Shown: piece by piece, positions 9,241-63,679 of the stretch
Layout of the letters: every line of letters starts with the position of its first letter
How positions within the stretch are numbered: position 1 is the first letter of the stretch
The notes under the pieces: model-generated
What the model saw: the letters and a program-made list of their open reading frames with translations, nothing else
Told to the model about the DNA's origin: nothing
Databases searched by the model: none
Assembly: GCA_000004695.1 (NCBI GenBank)
Contig: CM000151.3
Location: 352,001 to 416,000, forward strand
From: Dictyostelium discoideum
Lineage: Eukaryota
Direction: 5' to 3'
DNA: 64,000 nucleotides
Program-made: the position numbers and the translations under genes

Positions 9241-9761
9241 CCCATTTCTATTATTATACTGCAGTTACTGTCACTGTTATTATCACTGTTGCTATTACTA
9301 TTATATTCAGTAATACGATTCCCAATGCTATTTTAAATAATTCTTTAATGTTATTACCAAAATGATGCTCATAAATTAATGATTTTAATAATTCTCTGAA
9401 TCTTTTTAACCAACATTTTAGTGAAAATGAAAAAAAAAAAATAAAAAAAAATAAAAAAAAAAAAAATAACCACAAGTCAGCAAAATTATAGTGCGTTTTG
9501 AGCAAATTAATCATAAAAAAAAAAATTAAAAAAACTCACCCAAGTCAAACAAAAAAAAAAAAAAAAAAAAAAAAAATAAAAAAAGGGTTTAAACTCGCCA
9601 TAAAATATTAAAAAACTTTCTAAGTTAATTATTATGAATATTTTTTTTTTATTTTAAAAATTTAAAACTATACAATAAAAATATTTTATACTAAAATTTT
9701 TTTGAAAATAAAATAAATTGAATTTTATTTATTTATTTATTTTTATTATTATTATTATTAA

Positions 9762-9810
<49 letters not shown>

Positions 9811-9836
9811 AATAAAAAAGGCAACTAAATGGCCGA

Positions 9837-10700
9837 TTACTCTGAATCAATATCAATTATTGTTGGTGATTCACCAATAATTACACAATCATCATCATCA
9901 TCACTGAATATGATGGATAAGTCATCTCGAAGCTCAATCATCAAGCCTATAAAGCATTTGACCACCTTTTGATCATTTGTTATAAAAGGTGGTATATTAT
10001 TGATGATTGAGTGACACTTTCCCATTTTTGTGAGAATAAATTCTGATGATTCTTTATACTGATCATAGTGAAGTGAAGCGAGGTGATTACTGAATACATG
10101 GATATCGCCACATTTATAACAACTCTTGTTTCTATTTGCATATACTAACTTTGTCATTATACCAATAATATAAACAATTGAGTTAACACATAATAATGTT
10201 TTATCTTCTTTAAGATTGTTAAAATAACCCAACACACTATTGTACTGGTCTACATCTGAGATCAATTTACTCATCATAAATGACCCTTTGGTGCCTTCAG
10301 ATTTTGAAAAAATCGAAGAATCACCACAAAGGCATTTTTTTGTTTGTGATGAGGAGGTTGTTGGGGACATAAATGATGAATGTGATGAAGTTGAGGTAAT
10401 TGTTGTTGTTGAAGAAGAGGATGTAGATATTGATGGTTTGGTTAATGAAGAGGTGGTAAATGTTGTTGTTGTGGTGTTTGTTGTGGGTTTCAAATACTCT
10501 TCATTACTTGATTGGTTGTTTTCAAACAAAAGGTGCATGGAGCCAATATTTACAACTTCAACTTCTTTTTCTTCAATGTTATCTGGTGATAGGATGGCCT
10601 TAAGCTCATCACTGATCTTACCAGCAAAACTTTTTTCACCCACGGTTCTGATTTTATCTATAAAAAAATTAATAAATAAATTTATTATTATTATTATTAC

Positions 10701-55589: not shown

Positions 55590-56520
55590 AATATACTCTT
55601 TCTTTTATATCAACCAAAAATTTAATTCAATTTTCTTAAAACTAATTCCATCGATATTAATATTTAATAAAAAAAAAAAAAATTTAAAAAATGAAAATAA
55701 TTCTTTTCGTTTATTTTTTCATTTTGTTCACAATAAATTATAAATTAATAATAATAATTATTATTTTTTTTTTTTTATTTTATTTTTTTTTTTTTTTTTT
55801 TTTTTAGAAACACACATATACTTGGTTAGATATTTTTTTTTTTTTTTAAAAAAAATTACTAGGGGTAATGATATATGAAAAAATAAAAAATGATTAAATA
55901 TTAATTTTGACCAATCAAAACAATAATTGCAATGATAAACTTTTAAATTTTAATTGGTTGGATGAAATCAATTTTTAAAGACGACCAACTCGTCAGTTTT
56001 TTTTTTTTTTTTTTTTTTTTTCATGAAATCTCGAGATATTAATTCTACAGTTCTTTGAATTCGCTAGAAGATATTATTTTTTTTCCTAAATACCTATCAT
56101 TTGCTTTCTTTTTCTTTTTCTTTTCTTTTTTTTATTTATTTTTATTTTTTTTTTTATTTTTATTTTTTATTTTAATTTTTTATTTACTTTAAAATAAAAA
56201 TTTTAAAATTATTTTTATATTTTTTATTCCTGTGTAGAAATTATAATTCTAAAAATGTATTATAAAATTTTACTTATATTTGCATTATTAATTTTTGTTA
56301 ATATTAATTTTGCTTCTTCTGAATTTAAAAAAAATGGTAATAATTATTTGAAACAATTAAAATATTAAATATATAAACGATTTGCTTTACTGATATTATT
56401 TTTATTTTAAATTTTTTTTTTTTTTTTTTCTTAAAATTAGAAACTGAATCTGCGACTTTAAAATCATTATATGCTAGTTATTTAATGCAAAATAACAATA
56501 ATACTAATTATAATAATACC

Positions 56521-56578
<58 letters not shown>

Positions 56579-56738
56579 GTAATAATACTAATATTTATAA
56601 TGATTCAGTAACAAAGAATAAATGTAAAAATAAGAATGAATTGACAGTTGGTATAATTGGTGGTGGTATTGCAGGTCTTTATGCTGGTATGTAATTTATT
56701 AATGATTATTATAAAATAATTTTTTGAAGGTATTAACC

Positions 56739-56770
<32 letters not shown>

Positions 56771-58750
56771 GTATGATTTTCGATGATTTAGGTATTGATT
56801 ATACAATCTTAGAAGCCAATAAGGAAAGAGTTGGTGGAAGAGTTTATACTCATAAATTTGATGATCATAAATATTCATATACTGATCTCGGTGCTATGCG
56901 TATTCCATTAACGCCATTAATGGATAGAATTGTATCAAACCAAAATTATTCATTATTTAGTAAATTGGCAAAAGGTGGATATCAAATTCCAACTGTACCA
57001 TTTTTAATGAGTGTTAATAATGAAATTAGTTATTATAATGGTATTAGAGTTTTAAAAGGTTCCCCAGTTTTAAATCCATCCGATCCATTTAATTATAGTG
57101 ATTCAAATAATGGTGGTCCAGGAAAAGGTATTCCAGACGAGTATGCAAATCGTACAGTTGACTCTTTAATTCTCCCAGTATTTTATCAATTCATTTACAA
57201 TTTAACAGTTGATTTTGATAATGGTTTTAAACAAATGTTAAAATATGATAGCTATTCTGCAAGAGATTATTTAAAAACATTCCATAATTATCCAAATTCA
57301 GTTGTGAGTATTTAAAAAAAAAAATTAAATTTATTAAAATATATAAATATTAAATTATATTATTTTTTTTATTTATTATTAGATTGATTATATTGAAAAT
57401 TTATCAACAAATACTGGAAGATTAGATCAATCATCTATTACTGAATTATTAATGAGTGTTTTTGATTTTAGTGGAGAAAAATTCGTTTGTGTTGAAGGTG
57501 GTACAGGTCTTATTGTTAAATCAATGAGTCAAATTATAAAGAAAAAAGTTGAAATGGGTAGTTTTGTTACTAAAATTTCAAAATCATATGATAAAAAGAA
57601 TAATGAAATCGATGGATTAAATGTTGAAGTAGTAAGAGATTCAAACTTTGGTGGTAGTGATACTGAAATATTGAAATTTAAACATGTAATTAGTACTACA
57701 ACTTTACCAGCATTACAAAGAATTGATACAAGTGATTTGAAATTACCATTGAAATTAAAGGTTGCAATTCGTTCACTTAAATACACTGGTGCTATTAAAC
57801 TTGCAATTAACTTTAAATATCGTTGGTGGGAAGATAGTGAATTTATGAGTGGTAAACCAATTAGAGGTGGTTCTTCAAATACCGATCTTTTACTTCGTCA
57901 AGTTGTTTATCCATCATATGGTATCAATAATGGTACAAAAGGTGTTAGCGGAGTTTTATTAGCAAGTTATAGTGGTGGTTTGGAATCAATCAGAGTAAGT
58001 TGTGAATAACATTATTATGTTTAAAATAATTAATATTAATTTTTCTTAAATTTTATAGATTAGTAGTATGATTGGTAAAAAAGATAAAGAAAGAAAACTT
58101 TTAAATATAGTTTTAAGAGATCTTGCTGAAATCCATAATGTTGATTTAAAGAAATTAAAAAATTTATATAAAGATCATTTCTTCCAAAGTTGGGATAATG
58201 ATGAATTTGTAAGTATTAAATTTTAATAAATATTTATTTTATTTTTGAAAATATTAATAAATTTTAATTTTATTTTAAAAAAAAAAAACAAATATTAGTC
58301 ATCAGGTGCTTTTGCATTATTTTCAATATCTCAATATACTGAACTTTTCCCAAGTACTGGACAATCACATGTTGATGGTAGATTCCATTTATCAGGTGAA
58401 TTAACCTCGGTTCATCATGCATGGATGATTGGTGGACTTAATAGTGCATATAGATCAGTTGATTTAATTTTAAAGAATGAAGGATTTGAAGATTTACGTA
58501 TCAAATTAAGAAATAATTGGGGCACTATTGAGCAAGCTGAATATCCATCATTAGATTGGTATAAATACGACTCTGATATTAATCATTATAATATTCAAGG
58601 AAAATCAATTGAAAAATTATATTAAATAAATCAAAAAATTACCTATATATTGCTAGTTTATTTTCATTCTCATTTTAAGTTTATTTTATTTATTTATTTA
58701 TTTTTATTAGAGGAATTCCTCTTTTCTTCTTAGAAATTAATTAAATTTGG

Positions 58751-58790
<40 letters not shown>

Positions 58791-59344
58791 TTTAATTGGT
58801 GATTATGTATTTTTTAAAATTTTTTGGAAGTTAAAATTAAATTTAATTTCTTTTAAATTAAAAATATAATTTAAAATTAAATTAAATATTGATTTTAATT
58901 CATCTAATTCTTTAATTATAATTTTATAATGTCTAATTGATGTTAATGGTGAAGAAAATATATTTTCAAATAAATATTGATTAATTGTGTAACAAGATCT
59001 CAAAAACATCTTGTTAATACTAATATTTATTTAATTTCATGAAATGTTCTAAACAGAACATTTAAAAATAACTATTAATATTGAATTAATAATTCAATAT
59101 TAATTATTACTAATTTAATTTATTTTAATAAATTGTTTCATTTTATATAATAAACTCACTAAACACAACTAAATAATAATTCAAAAAAATAAATAATAAT
59201 AATTTAGAATATAGTTTTGTTTCAACATTTTATTATAACACATACAATTCAGAAAATAATAATAATTTATTTTACTGTTTTGTTTAAAGGGGTTTTCTCC
59301 CGTTGTAATAAAATTTAATTAATTTTAAATTAAATTTAATTTTC

Positions 59345-59379
<35 letters not shown>

Positions 59380-60407
59380 TTTCACAAAAAGGTTTTCATA
59401 ATAGATATTAGATACCAGATATTAAAAATGTCACACAAAATCACCATATAAAATAATAATATAAATTTAAAAATAATTTAATTAAAAAGAAAATAATAAT
59501 TAATTAGAATAAAATTAAAATAATATAATTTTGCAGTTTAAATCGGATCTAACCCTATAGGCTGAGGTTGGAGTAGTTAACAGATTTGAGTTCGCTCAAA
59601 TCTGAGGACTATAAAAAGAAACTAGGTTTCTAATTCAACCTCAGTAATAAATATATACAAATAATAAAATCACGATAGGGCTACGGTCATCACTTAAATA
59701 TATGTGTACATTTATTTCTTAAAATAATTATTTTATTAAATAATTTATTTTAAAAGGATGTCAACTAATAATAATAATAACAACAATAATAATAATGAAG
59801 ATATTGATAATGATGAATCTCAACAACAGGATAATGAGGAACAACAACTTCAACAACCACAGGTATCAACATTCAATGAACAGCAATGTCAAATAAGGGA
59901 ACAGCAGGAAAAACTAACACTGATGACACTGACCACCAGTTGTTACAAATTGAAATTCGTTCGTAATGTAATTCATCATTATTATTTGAAGAGGTACTAT
60001 ATTCAATGGATATATTCATTGGTAGTGGTGGTGGTCGATGTTGTTTATTATATGAATAAAAAATAAAATCGCTATAAGTTAAATGTAAATACTTAATTGA
60101 TTTATTATTTAATAAATTTGAAAATGAATTAATATTAAATAAACCATGGCAGTCTAATTTTGTTATTTCAATTGATGTATTTAATTATGAAAATAATGGT
60201 TTAAAATAATTTGAAAACATTTCTTTACTTTGATTTATGGTCTTAATTTAATTTTTATTTTTTTTCATCATCACAGTAATCATCCGAACCATATGCACTA
60301 TCACTATGTTGTCTATAATAATGATTGTTAATCAAATCTTCTATTCTAATGTTATATTTAAAATTTTTAAAGATTTACTTGAAATTAATGAATTCATCAT
60401 TTCTTTT

Positions 60408-60438
<31 letters not shown>

Positions 60439-60454
60439 TTTTTTTTTTTTTAAA
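55590..60454. repeat. tandem segmental duplication unit A (about 4.9 kb; unit B = 60455..beyond window end)
   Basis: Upstream flank, gene and downstream flank of the amine-oxidase locus all recur with a 4.87-5.14 kb offset. Unit B carries an extra insertion of about 410 bp at 60709-61120. Confidence 0.65.
56255..58625 (+). CDS. flavin-containing amine oxidase (LAAO/MAO-like), copy A, 6 exons, signal peptide
   Basis: The exons are 56255..56336 (MYYKILLIFALLIFVNINFASS signal), 56441..56686 (poly-Asn; GIIGGGIAGLYAG FAD Rossmann motif), 56771..57303 (ILEANKERVGGRVYTH), 57383..57994, 58059..58208 and 58299..58625 (SGELTSVHHAWMIGGLNSAYRSV). The donors are GTAATA, GTATGT, GTGAGT, GTAAGT and GTAAGT. 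The phases are consistent (1,1,0,0,0). Confidence 0.75.
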
Positions 60455-61394
60455 TAAACTTTTTTTATATCAAATTTAATAATTTAATTCAAATTTTCTT
60501 AAAACTAATACCAATTTTAATATTTATAAAAAAAAAAAAAAAAAAAACTAAAAAAAAAGAAAATTCTTTTCATTTATTAAAAATTTTTTATTTTGTTCAC
60601 AAGAAATTAATAATTATTTATATTATTTTATTTTTTTATTTTTTTATTTTTTTTTTTTAGAAACACACATATGCTTGATTAGATTTTTTTTTAAAATTAC
60701 TAGGGGTAATTGTTGAACATTAACACAATAATTTAAATAAATGATTTATTAGTTTAAAATACTCATGTTTTATCAGAATCTTGTAATAGAAAAATAAAAT
60801 TAAATTAAATAAATAAATATATAAATAAAAATAAAGTAATAAGTTGATGTTATCGACAATATCTATAATTTATTATGAATGTTTTTTTATAGTTGAAAAT
60901 TTTTACTTTTTATATTTGAGATTTAAAAATATTTTTATGAGTTTTTCAATCCACATTAAAAACTCACCACGTCGCTTTTTCCCACCTAGGTGAGAAAAGT
61001 CTAATTATATAAACATAAATTATTTTAGTTTGCGAGCGAGATTGTATTCTAATTTAATATCTTGATAAAACATAATTTTATTGTAACAATTTAATTATTA
61101 CATAATTATATTACAACAGGTAATGATATGAAAAAATGACCACTCGAAACGATAAATTAAATGGTTGGATGAAATCAATTTTAAAAGACGACCAACTTGT
61201 CAGTTTTTTTTTTTTTAATATTATGAAATCTCCAGATATTATTTCTACAGTTCTTTGAATTAATTAGAAGATTTTTTTTTTTCTATCATTTGATTCTTTT
61301 TCTTTTCTTTTTTTTATTTATTATTATTTTACTTTAAAAATTTTAAAATTATTTTTATATTTTTTATTCCTGTATAGGAATTATTATTCTAAAA

Positions 61395-63679
61395 ATGTAT
61401 AAAAAAATTTTACTTATATTTGCATTATTTATTTTAGTTAATATTAATTTTGCTTCTTCTGAATTTAAAAAAAATGGTATTAAATATTTGAAACAATAAA
61501 AATATTATATATAAAACGATTCAATTTACTGATATTATTTTTATTTTAAATTTTTTTTTTTTTAAAAATTAGAAACTGAATCTGCAAATTTAAAATCGTT
61601 ATATGCTAGTTATTTAATGAAAAATAACAATAATACTAAATATAATAATAATGATAATAGTAATAATACTAATATTTATAATGATTCAGTAACAAAGAAT
61701 AAAAGTAAAAATAAGAATGAATTGACAGTTGGTATCATTGGTGGTGGTATTGCAGGTCTATATGCTGGTATGTTATTTATTAAAAGTATGATTATTATAA
61801 AATTATTTTTTGAAGGTGTTGACTTTTTTTTTTTTTTTTTTTTTTAAATCAAGGTATGATTTTCGATGATTTAGGTATTGATTATACAATCTTAGAAGCC
61901 AATAAGGAAAGAGTTGGTGGAAGAGTTTATACTCATAAATTTGATGATCATAAATATTCATATACTGATCTCGGTGCTATGCGTATTCCATTAACGCCAT
62001 TAATGGATAGAATTGTATCAAACCAAAATTATTCATTATTTAGTAAATTGGCAAAAGGTGGATATCAAATTCCAACTGTACCATTTTTAATTAGTGTTAA
62101 TAATGAAATTAGTTATTATAATGGTATTAGAGTTTTAAAAGGTTCCCCAGTTTTAAATCCATCCGATCCATTTAATTATAGTGATTCAAATAATGGTGGT
62201 CCAGGAAAAGGTATTCCAGACGAGTATGCAAATCGTACAGTTGATTCTTTAATTCTCCCAGTATTTTATCAATTCATTAACAATTTAACAGTTGATTTTT
62301 ATAATGGTTTTAAACAAATGTTAAAATATGATAGCTATTCTGCAAGAGATTATTTAAAAACATTCCATAATTATCCAAATTCAGTTGTGAGTATTTAAAA
62401 AAAATTTAATTTAAAAAAATATATTTATATTAATATTTTTTATTATTAGATTGAATATATTGAAAATTTATCAACAATTAGTGGAAGATTAGATCAAACA
62501 TCTATCACTGAATTATTAATGAGTGTTTTTGATTTTAGTGGAGAAAAATTCGTTTGTGTTGAAGGTGGTACAGGTCTTATTGTTAAATCAATGAGTCAAA
62601 TTATAAAGAAAAAAGTTGAAATGGGTAGTTTTGTTACTAAAATTTCAAAATCATTTGATAAAAAGAATAATGAAATCGATGGATTAAATGTTGAAGTAGT
62701 AAGAGATTCAAACTTTGGTGGTAGTGATACTGAAATATTGAAATTTAAACATGTAATTAGTACTACAACTTTACCAGCATTACAAAGAATTGATACAAGT
62801 GATTTGAAATTACCATTGAAATTAAAGGTTGCAATTCGTTCACTCAAATACACTGGTGCTATTAAACTTGCAATTAACTTTAAATATCGTTGGTGGGAAG
62901 ATAGTGAATTTATGAGTGGTAAACCAATTAGAGGTGGTTCTTCAAATACCGATCTTTTACTTCGTCAAGTTGTTTATCCATCATATGGTATCAATAATGG
63001 TACAAAAGGTGTCAGCGGAGTTTTATTAGCAAGTTATAGTGGTGGTTTGGAATCAATCAGAGTAAGTTGTAAATAACATTGATTAAGTTTAAAATAATTT
63101 AATATTAATCAAATTAATTTTTCTTAAATTTTATAGATTAGTAGTATGATTGGTAAAAAAGATAAAGAAAGAAAACTTTTAAATATAGTTTTAAGAGATC
63201 TTGCTGAAATCCATAATGTTGATTTAAAGAAATTAAAAAATTTATATAAAGATCATTTCTTCCAAAGTTGGGATAATGATGAATTTGTAAGTATTAAATT
63301 TTAATAAATATTTATTTTATTTTTGAAAATATTAATAAATTTTATTTTTATTTTAAAAAAAAAAAACAAATATTAGTCATCAGGTGCTTTTGCATTATTT
63401 TCAACATCTCAATATACTGAACTTTTCCCAAGTACTGGACAATCACATGTTGATGGTAGATTCCATTTATCAGGTGAATTAACCTCGGTTCATCATGCAT
63501 GGATGATTGGTGGACTTAATAGTGCATATAGATCAGTTGATTTAATTTTAAAGAATGAAGGATTTGAAGATTTACGTATCAAATTAAGAAATAATTGGGG
63601 TACTATTGAACAAGCTGAATATCCATCATTAGATTGGTATAAATACGACTCTGATATTAATCATTATAAATTATATTAA
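61395..63679 (+). CDS. flavin-containing amine oxidase, copy B (tandem duplicate), 6 exons
   Basis: The exons are 61395..61476, 61573..61767, 61854..62386, 62450..63061, 63137..63286 and 63377..63679. Copy B is more than 97% identical to copy A in exons 3-6. Exon 2 has a shorter Asn tract, and exon 6 lacks 24 nt (NIQGKSIE) in frame before the stop. Confidence 0.7.

What the first reader, a model, noticed from the sequence alone, without database searches (positions are those of the whole stretch)
59545..59690. GC-richer structured island between the duplicated units - candidate small ncRNA
In a >80% AT context, 59545-59690 has much higher GC and nested complementarity. A perfect 8-bp hairpin with a UUCG loop (gatttgagTTCGctcaaatc, 59583-59602) sits inside a 9/10-bp helix (gctgaggttg...caacctcagt, 59561-59570/59636-59645). 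These are enclosed by ccctatag/cgataggg. CUGA (D-box-like) motifs occur twice. No ORF is present. This resembles a compact structured RNA more than neutral intergenic sequence.
Basis: seen in the sequence. Interest (0 to 1): 0.55.

Follow-up and report, generated by a model that had tools for sequence, protein, structure and literature searches.

The report
Folded RNA domain inside solo LTR
The GC-richer, strongly folding island is real, but it is an internal part of a leftover long terminal repeat (solo LTR) of a Ty3/gypsy-type retrotransposon in Dictyostelium discoideum, not a free-standing small RNA gene.

Summary
Window 59544-59691 is 36% GC in a 10-19% GC context. It folds into a nested three-way-junction structure (-46.4 kcal/mol, z about -6).

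The interpretation needs revising. The island lies inside a 960-bp insertion (58988-59947) with 5'-TGTAACAA...TTGTTACA-3' termini and a 5-bp target-site duplication (AATTG). A paralogous spacer provides the empty site.

Other copies in D. discoideum and D. cf. discoideum have their own 5-bp duplications. In some copies the unit is followed by a TGG primer-binding site and a gag-like ORF. One copy (L017) continues with RT, RNase H and integrase. So the insertion is a solo LTR of about 1.0-1.2 kb whose gag start codon lies inside the LTR. The island sits 70-210 nt upstream of that ATG.

The fold recurs in all 8 distinct copies found (92.6% of pair cells keep pairing). It favours the sense strand in the six complete copies. 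One subfamily lacks the central "UUCG" hairpin, and that hairpin's loop is not conserved.

There is no Rfam match and no DUSE promoter motif. The island is most likely a cis-acting leader/R-region RNA structure of the retroelement, and here it is a relic. Interest is modest. The LTR family does not match the catalogued D. discoideum LTR families by length.

The parts
58988..59947 (+). Solo LTR (960 bp; a deleted copy of a ~1.16-1.2-kb LTR) of a Ty3/gypsy-type retrotransposon.
   Evidence: It is an insertion relative to the paralogous spacer. Other copies are L013 9164-10326, L014 3715-4911, L017 9266-10338 and L018 6157-7188. LTR-PBS-gag is seen in L015. LTR-PBS-gag-RT-RNaseH-IN is seen in L017.
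58983..58987 (.). Left copy of the 5-bp target-site duplication, AATTG.
   Evidence: The empty site GATTAATTGAAATTCG is in the paralogous spacer (L001 1151-1155).
59948..59952 (.). Right copy of the 5-bp target-site duplication, AATTG.
58988..58995 (+). Left LTR terminus TGTAACAA (TG...; fits the TGTNR pattern). It is the inverted repeat of the right terminus.
   Evidence: The TGTNR pattern of Gypsy LTR termini is described in PMC2836005.
59940..59947 (+). Right LTR terminus TTGTTACA (...CA).
   Evidence: In L015 and L017 this terminus is followed directly by TGGTAGCTTCTC, a primer-binding site.
59544..59691 (+).
   Evidence: RNAfold z = -5.96. The covariance model built from the copies matches here at 173 bits, and matches 8 other instances. 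92.6% of pair cells are kept across 8 distinct copies.
59546..59558 (+). Helix 1, 5' strand (GATCTA.CCCTAT). It pairs with 59675-59688.
   Evidence: 94.5% of cells are paired across copies.
59675..59688 (+). Helix 1, 3' strand (ATAGGG.TA.GGTC).
59561..59572 (+). Helix 2, 5' strand (GCTGAGGTTGGA). It pairs with 59634-59645.
59634..59645 (+). Helix 2, 3' strand (TTCAACCTCAGT).
59573..59612 (+). Helices 3 and 4: GTAGTT/GACTAT closing the perfect 10-bp palindromic hairpin CAGATTTGAG-TTCG-CTCAAATCTG (59581-59604).
   Evidence: The loop varies TTCG/TCTG/CGAA. The stem is replaced by GCAGATCT/AGATCTGC in D. cf. discoideum copies and is absent in L017 and L018a.
59617..59631 (+). Helix 5: hairpin AGAAAC-TAG-GTTTCT.
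59663..59669 (+). AATAAAA in the unpaired linker, invariant in all 8 copies. It is a candidate polyadenylation signal (inference only).
   Evidence: It appears in the list of invariant columns of alignment A3.
59758..59947 (+). LTR-borne start of the gag ORF (MSTNNN...). In this copy an internal deletion disrupts it. It is annotated as part of DDB_G0271474 (59758-60066).
   Evidence: The same ORF continues into gag in P0011, P0006 and P0013.

Best explanation
The island is an internal domain of a long terminal repeat. The window comes from Dictyostelium discoideum AX4 chromosome 2.

Shown: positions 58988-59947 are a solo LTR of a Ty3/gypsy-type retrotransposon. Its LTRs are about 1.0-1.2 kb long and contain the gag start codon. 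The solo LTR is left over from an integrase-mediated insertion, and the internal part was presumably lost by LTR-LTR recombination. The island (59544-59691) lies on the sense strand, 70-210 nt upstream of the gag ATG.

Inferred: the island is transcribed as part of the element's genomic RNA. It would be in the 5' leader/R region, or in U3 at the RNA's 3' end. It acts in cis as a folded RNA. The fold has an outer helix that clamps a three-way junction, plus a palindromic hairpin.

Candidate roles, by analogy with retroviral and Ty leaders, are RNA dimerisation or packaging, strand transfer during reverse transcription, or control of the invariant AAUAAA that sits in its unpaired linker.

A specific, unproven model is that the island is the R region. 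Transcription would start near 59545 and polyadenylation would occur just after 59688.

At this locus the element is a dead relic, so the island probably does nothing for the host.
For: The insertion:
- The 960-bp block is absent from the paralogous spacer. The junction is a 5-bp duplication, AATTG.
- The termini TGTAACAA...TTGTTACA are an 8-bp inverted repeat of TG...CA type.

Independent copies with their own 5-bp duplications:
- L013, AGTTT.
- L014A, CATAT.
- L018a, inferred from a 5-bp overlap at an empty-site paralogue.
- L017, TTTTT.

Retroelement body:
- In L015 and L017 the LTR end is followed at once by TGGTAGCTTCTC.
- The ORF that starts in the LTR continues into gag-like proteins P0011, P0006 and P0013.
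- L017 carries zf-CCHC, RVT_1, RT_RNaseH, Integrase_H2C2 and rve in that order. It also has a 97%-identical partial 3' LTR.

The fold:
- z-scores are -4.5 to -8.3 in the seven copies folded, z-scored independently; they include copies only 65-75% identical.
- The covariance model finds 9 instances (8 distinct) and nothing else in 195 kb.
- 92.6% of pair cells form standard pairs, against 35-41% when the partners are slid.
- 8 pairs change on one side only while keeping pairing, mostly through G.U.
- L016 has matching deletions on both strands of helix 1, which leave a continuous 9-bp helix.
- In the six complete copies the sense strand folds 4-21 kcal/mol better than the antisense strand. It uses 3-7 G.U pairs.
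Against: - No transcript data were available. The transcription start, the poly(A) site, and therefore whether the island is in U3, R or U5, are not determined.
- Among the four D. discoideum copies, 43 of 46 pairs never vary and none shows a compensatory change.
- Paired positions vary at the same rate as the rest of the LTR (3/92 against 22/528). Conservation among close copies therefore reflects recent common ancestry only.
- The five 'both-sides-changed' pairs all lie in a perfect palindrome and depend on a one-base register shift in the alignment. Perfect palindromes can also be kept by DNA-level processes, and the loop inversion TTCG to CGAA in L014B shows such processes operate here.
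- The L017/L018a subfamily lacks the central hairpin, and L017 is the copy attached to the RT/IN-bearing element. That hairpin is therefore dispensable.
- In those two reduced copies the antisense strand folds slightly better.
- The alignment used for the final counts was fitted to the model's structure.
Confidence: 0.6

Rival explanations
1. The island is a DNA-level promoter or enhancer module in the U3 part of the LTR. Under this reading the palindromes are binding sites for dimeric transcription factors that drive the gag transcript starting downstream. The predicted RNA fold would be a by-product.
For: - The island lies 70-210 bp upstream of the gag ATG.
- Between the island and the ATG there are TATA-like and T-rich stretches (59699-59755), which could be a core promoter (this is inference).
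- GC-richer blocks in AT-rich Dictyostelium upstream regions are typically regulatory (own knowledge).
- The most conserved blocks, GATCTAACCCTATCGGCTGAG and CGATAGGG, are conserved as sequence, not only as pairs.
- The palindromic hairpin is dispensable in one subfamily.
Against: - Long-range nested complementarity is not what transcription-factor sites need. The helix 2 arms are 61 nt apart and the helix 1 arms about 116 nt apart.
- The fold uses 3-7 G.U pairs, and the sense strand folds 4-21 kcal/mol better in the six complete copies.
- One-sided changes repeatedly fall on G.U-compatible alternatives.
- L016 has coordinated deletions on both strands of helix 1.
Confidence: 0.22
2. The island is an independently transcribed small ncRNA gene. 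It would either be carried as a passenger in the LTR or have been taken over by the host at this locus.
For: - The fold is strong and compact and conserved across LTR copies.
- Other D. discoideum repeats are known to carry small-RNA loci. Thug-S carries miRNAs (PMC4894637 and PMC6161686). A mir-7131 hairpin was found in L013.
Against: - No Rfam family matches, even at E up to 10.
- There is no DUSE motif within 8 kb. DUSE lies about 60 nt upstream of many D. discoideum ncRNA genes (PMC7919456).
- No T-run terminator follows the island directly.
- The minus-strand GUGAUGA C-box-like motif is not conserved in other copies.
- The helices are 6-12 bp, too short and too branched for a Dicer substrate.
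- Every instance found sits at the same position inside an LTR.
Confidence: 0.08
3. The island is a functionless by-product. Nested palindromes would have arisen and been kept by DNA replication or repair processes (hairpin template switching, small inversions) in an AT-rich repeat, with no role as RNA or as a protein-binding site.
For: - The central hairpin is a perfect palindrome in every copy that has it, although its sequence differs between lineages.
- One copy has an exact loop inversion.
- The LTR contains other palindromes: 58990-59016, 59041-59066 and 59069-59109.
- Stems are no more conserved than the LTR background among close copies.
Against: - The outer helices are not simple palindromes. 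They are long-range, contain G.U pairs and favour one strand.
- The architecture persists across copies only 65-75% identical and through indels.
- The island keeps 36-39% GC in a very AT-rich LTR in both lineages.
Confidence: 0.1

Closest known systems
Ty3/gypsy (Metaviridae) LTR retrotransposons of dictyostelids: Skipper-1, Skipper-2 (DGLT-P) and DGLT-A
   Same: - TG...CA (TGTNR) termini and a 5-bp target-site duplication.
- A TGG primer-binding site directly after the 5' LTR.
- gag with a CCHC zinc knuckle, then RT, RNase H and integrase (H2C2 + rve).
- No chromodomain was detected, as in DGLT-A.
- Solo LTRs are frequent.
   Different: - The LTR is about 1.0-1.2 kb. The catalogued lengths are 390 bp (Dd Skipper-1), 208 bp (Dd Skipper-2) and 265 bp (Dd DGLT-A) (PMC5006619 Table 1).
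- The gag start codon and about 110 codons lie inside the LTR.
- No tRNA gene lies within 10 kb of any copy. Dd DGLT-A sits 13-33 bp upstream of tRNA genes and Skipper-2 sits downstream of them.
- Skipper-1 has a polypyrimidine tract in place of a TGG primer-binding site.
Structured 5' leaders and R regions of retroviruses and LTR retrotransposons: HIV-1 TAR and poly(A) hairpins, MoMLV Psi palindromes, the Ty1 leader with gag starting in the LTR
   Same: - A compact multi-helix RNA domain upstream of gag in the LTR or leader.
- A palindromic hairpin.
- An AAUAAA embedded in the structured region.
- For Ty1, the gag ATG lies inside the LTR.

These comparisons rest on own knowledge of those systems.
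   Different: - There is no sequence or Rfam similarity.
- The transcript ends are unknown here, so assigning the island to R or to the leader is inference.
- The central hairpin is dispensable in one subfamily.
Ginger2/Tdd DNA transposons of D. discoideum (Tdd-4, Tdd-5)
   Same: A 5-bp target-site duplication and TGTNR termini (PMC2836005). This was my first working hypothesis.
   Different: - The metazoan Ginger2 elements described in the paper have 50-180-bp terminal inverted repeats. Here the repeat is only 8 bp.
- The unit is followed by a primer-binding site plus gag-RT-RNaseH-IN and occurs as a direct terminal repeat.
DUSE-driven small ncRNAs of Dictyostelium (Class I RNAs, snRNAs, snoRNAs)
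   Same: A GC-richer, structured island in AT-rich non-coding DNA, which is how such genes stand out.
   Different: - No DUSE motif.
- No Rfam match.
- Every instance is at a fixed position inside an LTR.

Membership tests
LTR of a Ty3/gypsy LTR retrotransposon | 5'-TG...CA-3' termini with a short terminal inverted repeat (TGTNR pattern). | tested here: met
   TGTAACAA...TTGTTACA is found in the window, L013 and L017. L014A has a 6-bp deletion just inside the terminus, and L018a reads TGTAAGAA. The pattern is described in PMC2836005.
LTR of a Ty3/gypsy LTR retrotransposon | A 4-6-bp target-site duplication that differs at each insertion. | tested here: met
   The duplications are AATTG (window, with an empty site in a paralogue), AGTTT (L013), CATAT (L014A) and TTTTT (L017). 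L018a shows a 5-bp overlap at an empty-site paralogue.
LTR of a Ty3/gypsy LTR retrotransposon | A primer-binding site beginning with TGG immediately downstream of the 5' LTR. | tested here: met
   ...GTTGTTACA|TGGTAGCTTCTC in L015 and ...TTTGTTACA|TGGTAGCTTCTC in L017.
LTR of a Ty3/gypsy LTR retrotransposon | An internal region encoding gag, RT, RNase H and integrase, in that order. | tested here: met
   In L017 the order is gag (P0013), zf-CCHC, RVT_1, RT_RNaseH, Integrase_H2C2 + rve.
LTR of a Ty3/gypsy LTR retrotransposon | Two direct LTR copies flanking the internal region, with a polypurine tract before the 3' LTR. | tested here: inconclusive
   The L017 3' LTR is only the last 342 bp (97% identical). 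It is fused directly to the end of the integrase ORF, and no polypurine tract is visible. This looks like a deletion in a degenerate copy. No intact full-length element was recovered.
Catalogued D. discoideum LTR families (Skipper-1, Skipper-2/DGLT-P, DGLT-A) | LTR length of 390, 208 or 265 bp. tRNA-gene association for DGLT-A and Skipper-2. A polypyrimidine tract in place of a primer-binding site for Skipper-1. | tested here: not met
   The LTRs here are 960-1197 bp. No tRNA gene lies within 10 kb. The primer-binding site is a canonical TGG. Reference values come from PMC5006619. Sequence comparison with the published consensus elements was not possible.
Ginger2/Tdd DNA transposon (non-autonomous) | Long terminal inverted repeats (50-180 bp in the metazoan Ginger2 elements of PMC2836005) and no reverse-transcriptase-bearing relatives. 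| tested here: not met
   Only 8 bp of terminal inverted repeat is present. The unit is attached to a primer-binding site and gag-RT-RNaseH-IN.
Dictyostelium DUSE-dependent small ncRNA gene | A DUSE motif about 60 nt upstream of the transcription start. | tested here: not met
   WCCCAYAA occurs only at 10481 and 50675 in the window. The role of DUSE is described in PMC7919456. The consensus string I searched for comes from my own memory of Hinas et al. 2006.
Any Rfam 15 family (snoRNA, snRNA, ribozymes, miRNA including mir-7131) | A covariance-model match at the gathering score. | tested here: not met
   There is no hit in the island at the gathering score or at E up to 10. mir-7131 matches elsewhere, at L013 3804-3892.
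Box C/D snoRNA | Conserved C box (RUGAUGA) and D box (CUGA) brought together by a terminal stem. | tested here: not met
   The only C-box-like motif is GUGAUGA on the minus strand at 59687-59693. It is UUAAUGA or UUGAUGA in the other copies. No Rfam C/D family matched inside the island; the only weak C/D match (sR24, E 8.2) lies outside it at 59857-59899.

The most novel reading that the evidence does not exclude
The island may be the R region, or 5' leader domain, of a so far uncatalogued Ty3/gypsy family of the D. discoideum species group. The family has unusually long LTRs (about 1.1 kb) that contain the first ~110 codons of gag. Under this reading the roughly 145-nt fold would start at the transcription start. 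It would hold an invariant AAUAAA in its open linker and would end at the poly(A) site. A single clamp-like RNA domain would then define both transcript ends and serve strand transfer or dimerisation.
Probability: 0.25. Interest if true: 0.45.

Novelty: new member of a known kind. Interest (0 to 1): 0.3.

Why it matters
For the genome scan, this removes a plausible-looking ncRNA candidate. It also shows that GC-richer structured islands in Dictyostelium intergenic DNA can be retroelement relics.

It indicates that the annotated gene DDB_G0271474 is a chimeric reading of an LTR-borne gag start, not a host gene.

For mobile-element biology it points to an LTR family that is not in the published table of D. 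discoideum LTR elements. That family has long LTRs, a gag start inside the LTR and a conserved folded domain. A specialist could map transcript ends onto it and test how an amoebozoan retroelement organises its leader.

Tried and rejected
1. Rfam. I scanned the whole window at gathering score, and the island and a full LTR copy at E up to 10. Nothing relevant matched.

2. Exact 20-mer scans.
- JGI metagenomes gave 11 loci. The four I inspected are 44-59% GC with unrelated flanks, so they are chance matches. The other seven, on the minus strand, were not inspected.
- Viral contigs gave none.

3. Non-autonomous Tdd/Ginger2 DNA transposon. I held this hypothesis after finding the 5-bp duplication and TGTNR termini. 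I rejected it because of the 8-bp terminal inverted repeat and the primer-binding site, gag and pol.

4. Thug-S, the miRNA-bearing repeat. I rejected it because the mir-7131 hairpin lies in a different element. None of the miRNA sequences I could read match.

5. Pol III A/B-box or tRNA-like reading of GAGTTCGCTC. I rejected it because the loop is not conserved and ARAGORN finds nothing.

6. Hammerhead reading of CUGAGGA...GAAAC, examined by eye. I rejected it because no stem II lies between the motifs and there is no Rfam hit.

7. Box C/D reading on the minus strand. I rejected it because the C box is not conserved.

8. DUSE promoter. It is absent.

9. Literature.
- Glockner 2001, Wells 1999, Avesson 2012 and Larsson 2008 are not held.
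- A full-text search for island sequence strings and for the two gene identifiers found nothing.
- One literature search on 'thug-S/DDT-S' returned mostly pesticide papers.

Full report
**1. The observation**

The window is AT-rich Dictyostelium DNA. The ORF at 59758-60066 is identical to DDB_G0271474 of D. discoideum AX4, on an 8.48-Mb contig, which is the size of chromosome 2.

- The central hairpin is a perfect 10-bp stem (59581-59590 / 59595-59604) with a TTCG loop.
- It stacks on a 6-bp helix (59573-59578 / 59607-59612).
- A second hairpin lies at 59617-59631.
- Both sit inside a 12-bp helix (59561-59572 / 59634-59645).
- An outer helix (59546-59558 / 59675-59688) closes the whole after a 29-nt unpaired linker.

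GC is 0.29 in 150-nt windows, against 0.11-0.19 in the adjacent non-coding windows on either side. It is 0.36 over 59544-59691.

RNAfold gives -46.4 kcal/mol for the + strand, with z = -5.96 and no shuffle as good. The - strand gives -40.7 kcal/mol (z = -4.7).

The island occurs once in the window. It lies between two copies of a ~5.08-kb tandem duplication carrying amine-oxidase genes.

**2. No match to a known RNA family**

Rfam 15 finds only a tRNA-Val elsewhere in the window. It finds nothing in the island even at E up to 10.

No DUSE-like motif (WCCCAYAA; the consensus is from my own knowledge) lies within 8 kb. DUSE sits about 60 nt upstream of many D. discoideum ncRNA genes (PMC7919456).

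**3. The island is inside an insertion**

A second D. discoideum assembly (L001, GCA_054883475.1) is 99.45% identical over window 58700-60700. It extends past the window's end into the spacer that follows amine-oxidase copy 2.

That paralogous spacer aligns with window 58746-58987 and 59948-60407 as one contiguous stretch. The two alignments share the 5 bases AATTG.

Window 58988-59947 (960 bp) is therefore an insertion flanked by a 5-bp target-site duplication. It starts TGTAACAAG and ends GTTGTTACA, an 8-bp inverted repeat of TG...CA type. It has no longer terminal inverted repeat.

**4. It is a repeated element, and an LTR**

The ORF that starts in the insertion (ATG 59758, MSTNNN...) led to further copies:
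- L013 9164-10326 (1163 bp), duplication AGTTT.
- L014 3715-4911 (1197 bp), duplication CATAT.
- L014 9441-10166, a 5'-truncated and rearranged copy.

In the intact copies the ORF runs out of the right end without a stop codon.

A search of protein representatives found proteins in which the same N-terminus continues into a longer gag-like sequence. These include AX4 DDB_G0294302. In L015 the DNA reads ...CAGTTGTTACA|TGGTAGCTTCTC, a TGG primer-binding site directly after the repeat's end.

In Dictyostelium cf. discoideum (L017) the arrangement is as follows:
- A 1073-bp copy (9266-10338) is followed by the same primer-binding site.
- Then come gag (P0013, starting MSTNNNN inside the repeat) and a CCHC knuckle.
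- Then come RVT_1, RT_RNaseH and Integrase_H2C2 + rve.
- A 97%-identical partial 3' copy ends the element. The whole is flanked by TTTTT.

A further solo copy (L018 6157-7188) interrupts another repeat. An empty-site paralogue of that repeat shows a 5-bp overlap.

The insertion in the window is thus a solo LTR of a Ty3/gypsy-type retrotransposon. My earlier idea of a Tdd/Ginger2 DNA transposon fitted the 5-bp duplication and TGTNR termini (PMC2836005), but these findings rule it out.

The LTR length of 1.0-1.2 kb does not fit the catalogued D. discoideum families (PMC5006619):
- Skipper-1, 390 bp.
- Skipper-2, 208 bp.
- DGLT-A, 265 bp.

No copy lies near a tRNA gene. I could not compare sequences with the published consensus elements or with Repbase. 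'Uncatalogued' is therefore a provisional statement.

**5. The island within the LTR**

The island lies on the sense strand, 70-210 nt upstream of the gag ATG.

Among the four D. discoideum copies it is nearly invariant:
- 43 of 46 pairs never vary and none is compensatory.
- Paired positions vary at the LTR's background rate (3/92 against 22/528). Unpaired island positions vary more (9/48).
- The hairpin loop reads TTCG, TCTG or CGAA, the last being an exact inversion. The UUCG tetraloop is therefore not a conserved feature.

More diverged copies from D. cf. discoideum are 65-75% identical and more informative:
- L018b and L016 keep the whole architecture.
- In them the central hairpin has a different perfect palindrome (GCAGATCT / AGATCTGC), and helix 5 has a shifted register.
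- Several one-sided changes toggle between G.U and Watson-Crick pairs.
- L016 has matching deletions on both strands of helix 1, which leave a continuous 9-bp helix.
- L017 and L018a keep helices 1 and 5 and the base of helix 2, but lack the central hairpin.

The seven copies folded (L017 was not extracted by that script and got no z-score) each fold with z between -4.5 and -8.3.

I built a covariance model from six copies. It finds 9 instances (8 distinct) in 195 kb and nothing else. On its alignment:
- 92.6% of pair cells form standard pairs, against 35-41% for slid partners.
- 8 pairs vary on one side only.
- 5 pairs change on both sides. All five lie in the palindrome, and they depend on a one-base register shift. 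I give them little weight.

The alignment is fitted to the model, and the copies are related, so these numbers are supportive rather than decisive.

In the six complete copies the sense strand folds 4-21 kcal/mol better than the antisense strand and uses 3-7 G.U pairs. This argues for a sense-strand RNA (or single-stranded DNA) structure rather than a double-stranded DNA feature.

**6. How it most likely works**

Shown: the island is a conserved, strand-biased folded domain of an LTR, upstream of an LTR-borne gag start.

Inferred: it is part of the element's genomic RNA and acts in cis.

The linker between helices 2 and 1 carries AATAAAA (59663-59669), which is invariant in all eight copies. 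TATA-like sequence lies about 20 nt upstream of helix 1.

One concrete model is that the island is the R region. Transcription would start near 59545 and the poly(A) site would lie just after 59688. Helix 1 would then pair the two ends of R. This resembles retroviral R-region hairpins and the Ty1 arrangement with gag starting in the LTR (own knowledge). I put about 0.25-0.3 on this specific model.

The main rival is a U3 promoter module. Minor rivals are a passenger ncRNA gene and functionless DNA-level palindromes. At this locus the LTR is a relic with a ~200-bp deletion in the gag start.

**7. Verdict**

- The ncRNA-gene interpretation is only partly supported.
- The feature is a new member of a known kind: a structured cis-domain of an LTR retrotransposon.
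- Interest is modest. The by-products are a probably uncatalogued LTR family and a mis-annotated gene (DDB_G0271474).

Noticed in passing
window 59758-60066: The annotated AX4 gene DDB_G0271474 (102 aa, 'hypothetical protein') is a chimeric ORF. It consists of the LTR-borne gag start (59758-59947, frame-altered by a ~200-bp deletion relative to other copies) read through the LTR end into flanking DNA. It is probably not a host gene. The other assembly calls a different 111-aa chimera at the same place.
   Followed up: yes
window 56254-58624 and 61385-63669; L001 1151-1155: There is a tandem ~5.08-kb duplication of flavin amine-oxidase genes. The paired blocks compared are 86-99% identical (97-99% across the gene body). 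The LTR is in only one of the two paralogous spacers, so the insertion post-dates the duplication.
   Followed up: partly
L017 9266-15252; L015 10104-11329; L018 6157-7188 and 9531-10291: This appears to be an uncatalogued Ty3/gypsy family in D. discoideum and D. cf. discoideum. It has 1.0-1.2-kb LTRs, a gag ATG inside the LTR, the primer-binding site TGGTAGCTTCTC (the first 7 nt match the 3' end typical of initiator tRNA-Met, from own knowledge), no chromodomain and no tRNA-gene association. In D. discoideum only solo LTRs and fragments were seen.
   Followed up: partly
L014 9753-9756 versus window 59591-59594: The loop of the 10-bp palindromic hairpin is CGAA in copy L014B. That is the exact reverse complement of TTCG in the window copy, so a small hairpin-loop inversion has occurred. 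Copy L014A has TCTG.
   Followed up: yes
L013 3804-3892: A mir-7131 (RF03716) precursor hairpin scores above gathering on both strands (96 and 91 bits). It lies in a different repeat about 5 kb from the L013 LTR copy. It may be the multicopy thug-S miRNA locus mentioned in PMC4894637 and PMC6161686.
   Followed up: no
window 59345-59373: A run of 29 A residues lies inside the LTR. It is about 29-39 nt in the other copies. Next to it is the block TTTAAAGGGGTTTTCTCCCGTTG (59283-59305). Together they make up the most conserved internal part of the LTR between the two lineages (80-85% identity).
   Followed up: partly
window 58990-59016, 59041-59066, 59069-59109: Three further palindromes lie in the left part of the LTR. 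One is at the very terminus: TAACAAGAT...ATCTTGTTA.
   Followed up: no
window ~60255-60400 (- strand): A coding-like stretch on the minus strand reads ...EDLINNHYYRQHSDSAYGSDDYCDDE.... It is 84% conserved in the paralogous spacer, but neither annotation seen here calls it as a gene.
   Followed up: no
protein P0005 (source locus not retrievable): This 320-aa predicted protein joins a tyrosine-recombinase C-terminus (weak Phage_integrase match, DIRS-like) to a homologue of the LTR gag N-terminus. It is probably a nested-transposon chimera.
   Followed up: no
L018 5781-6156 + 7189-7300 versus L018 9000-9483: The solo LTR L018a interrupts another repeated sequence. An uninterrupted paralogue of that repeat lies 2 kb away and gives a second empty-site confirmation with a 5-bp overlap.
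   Followed up: partly
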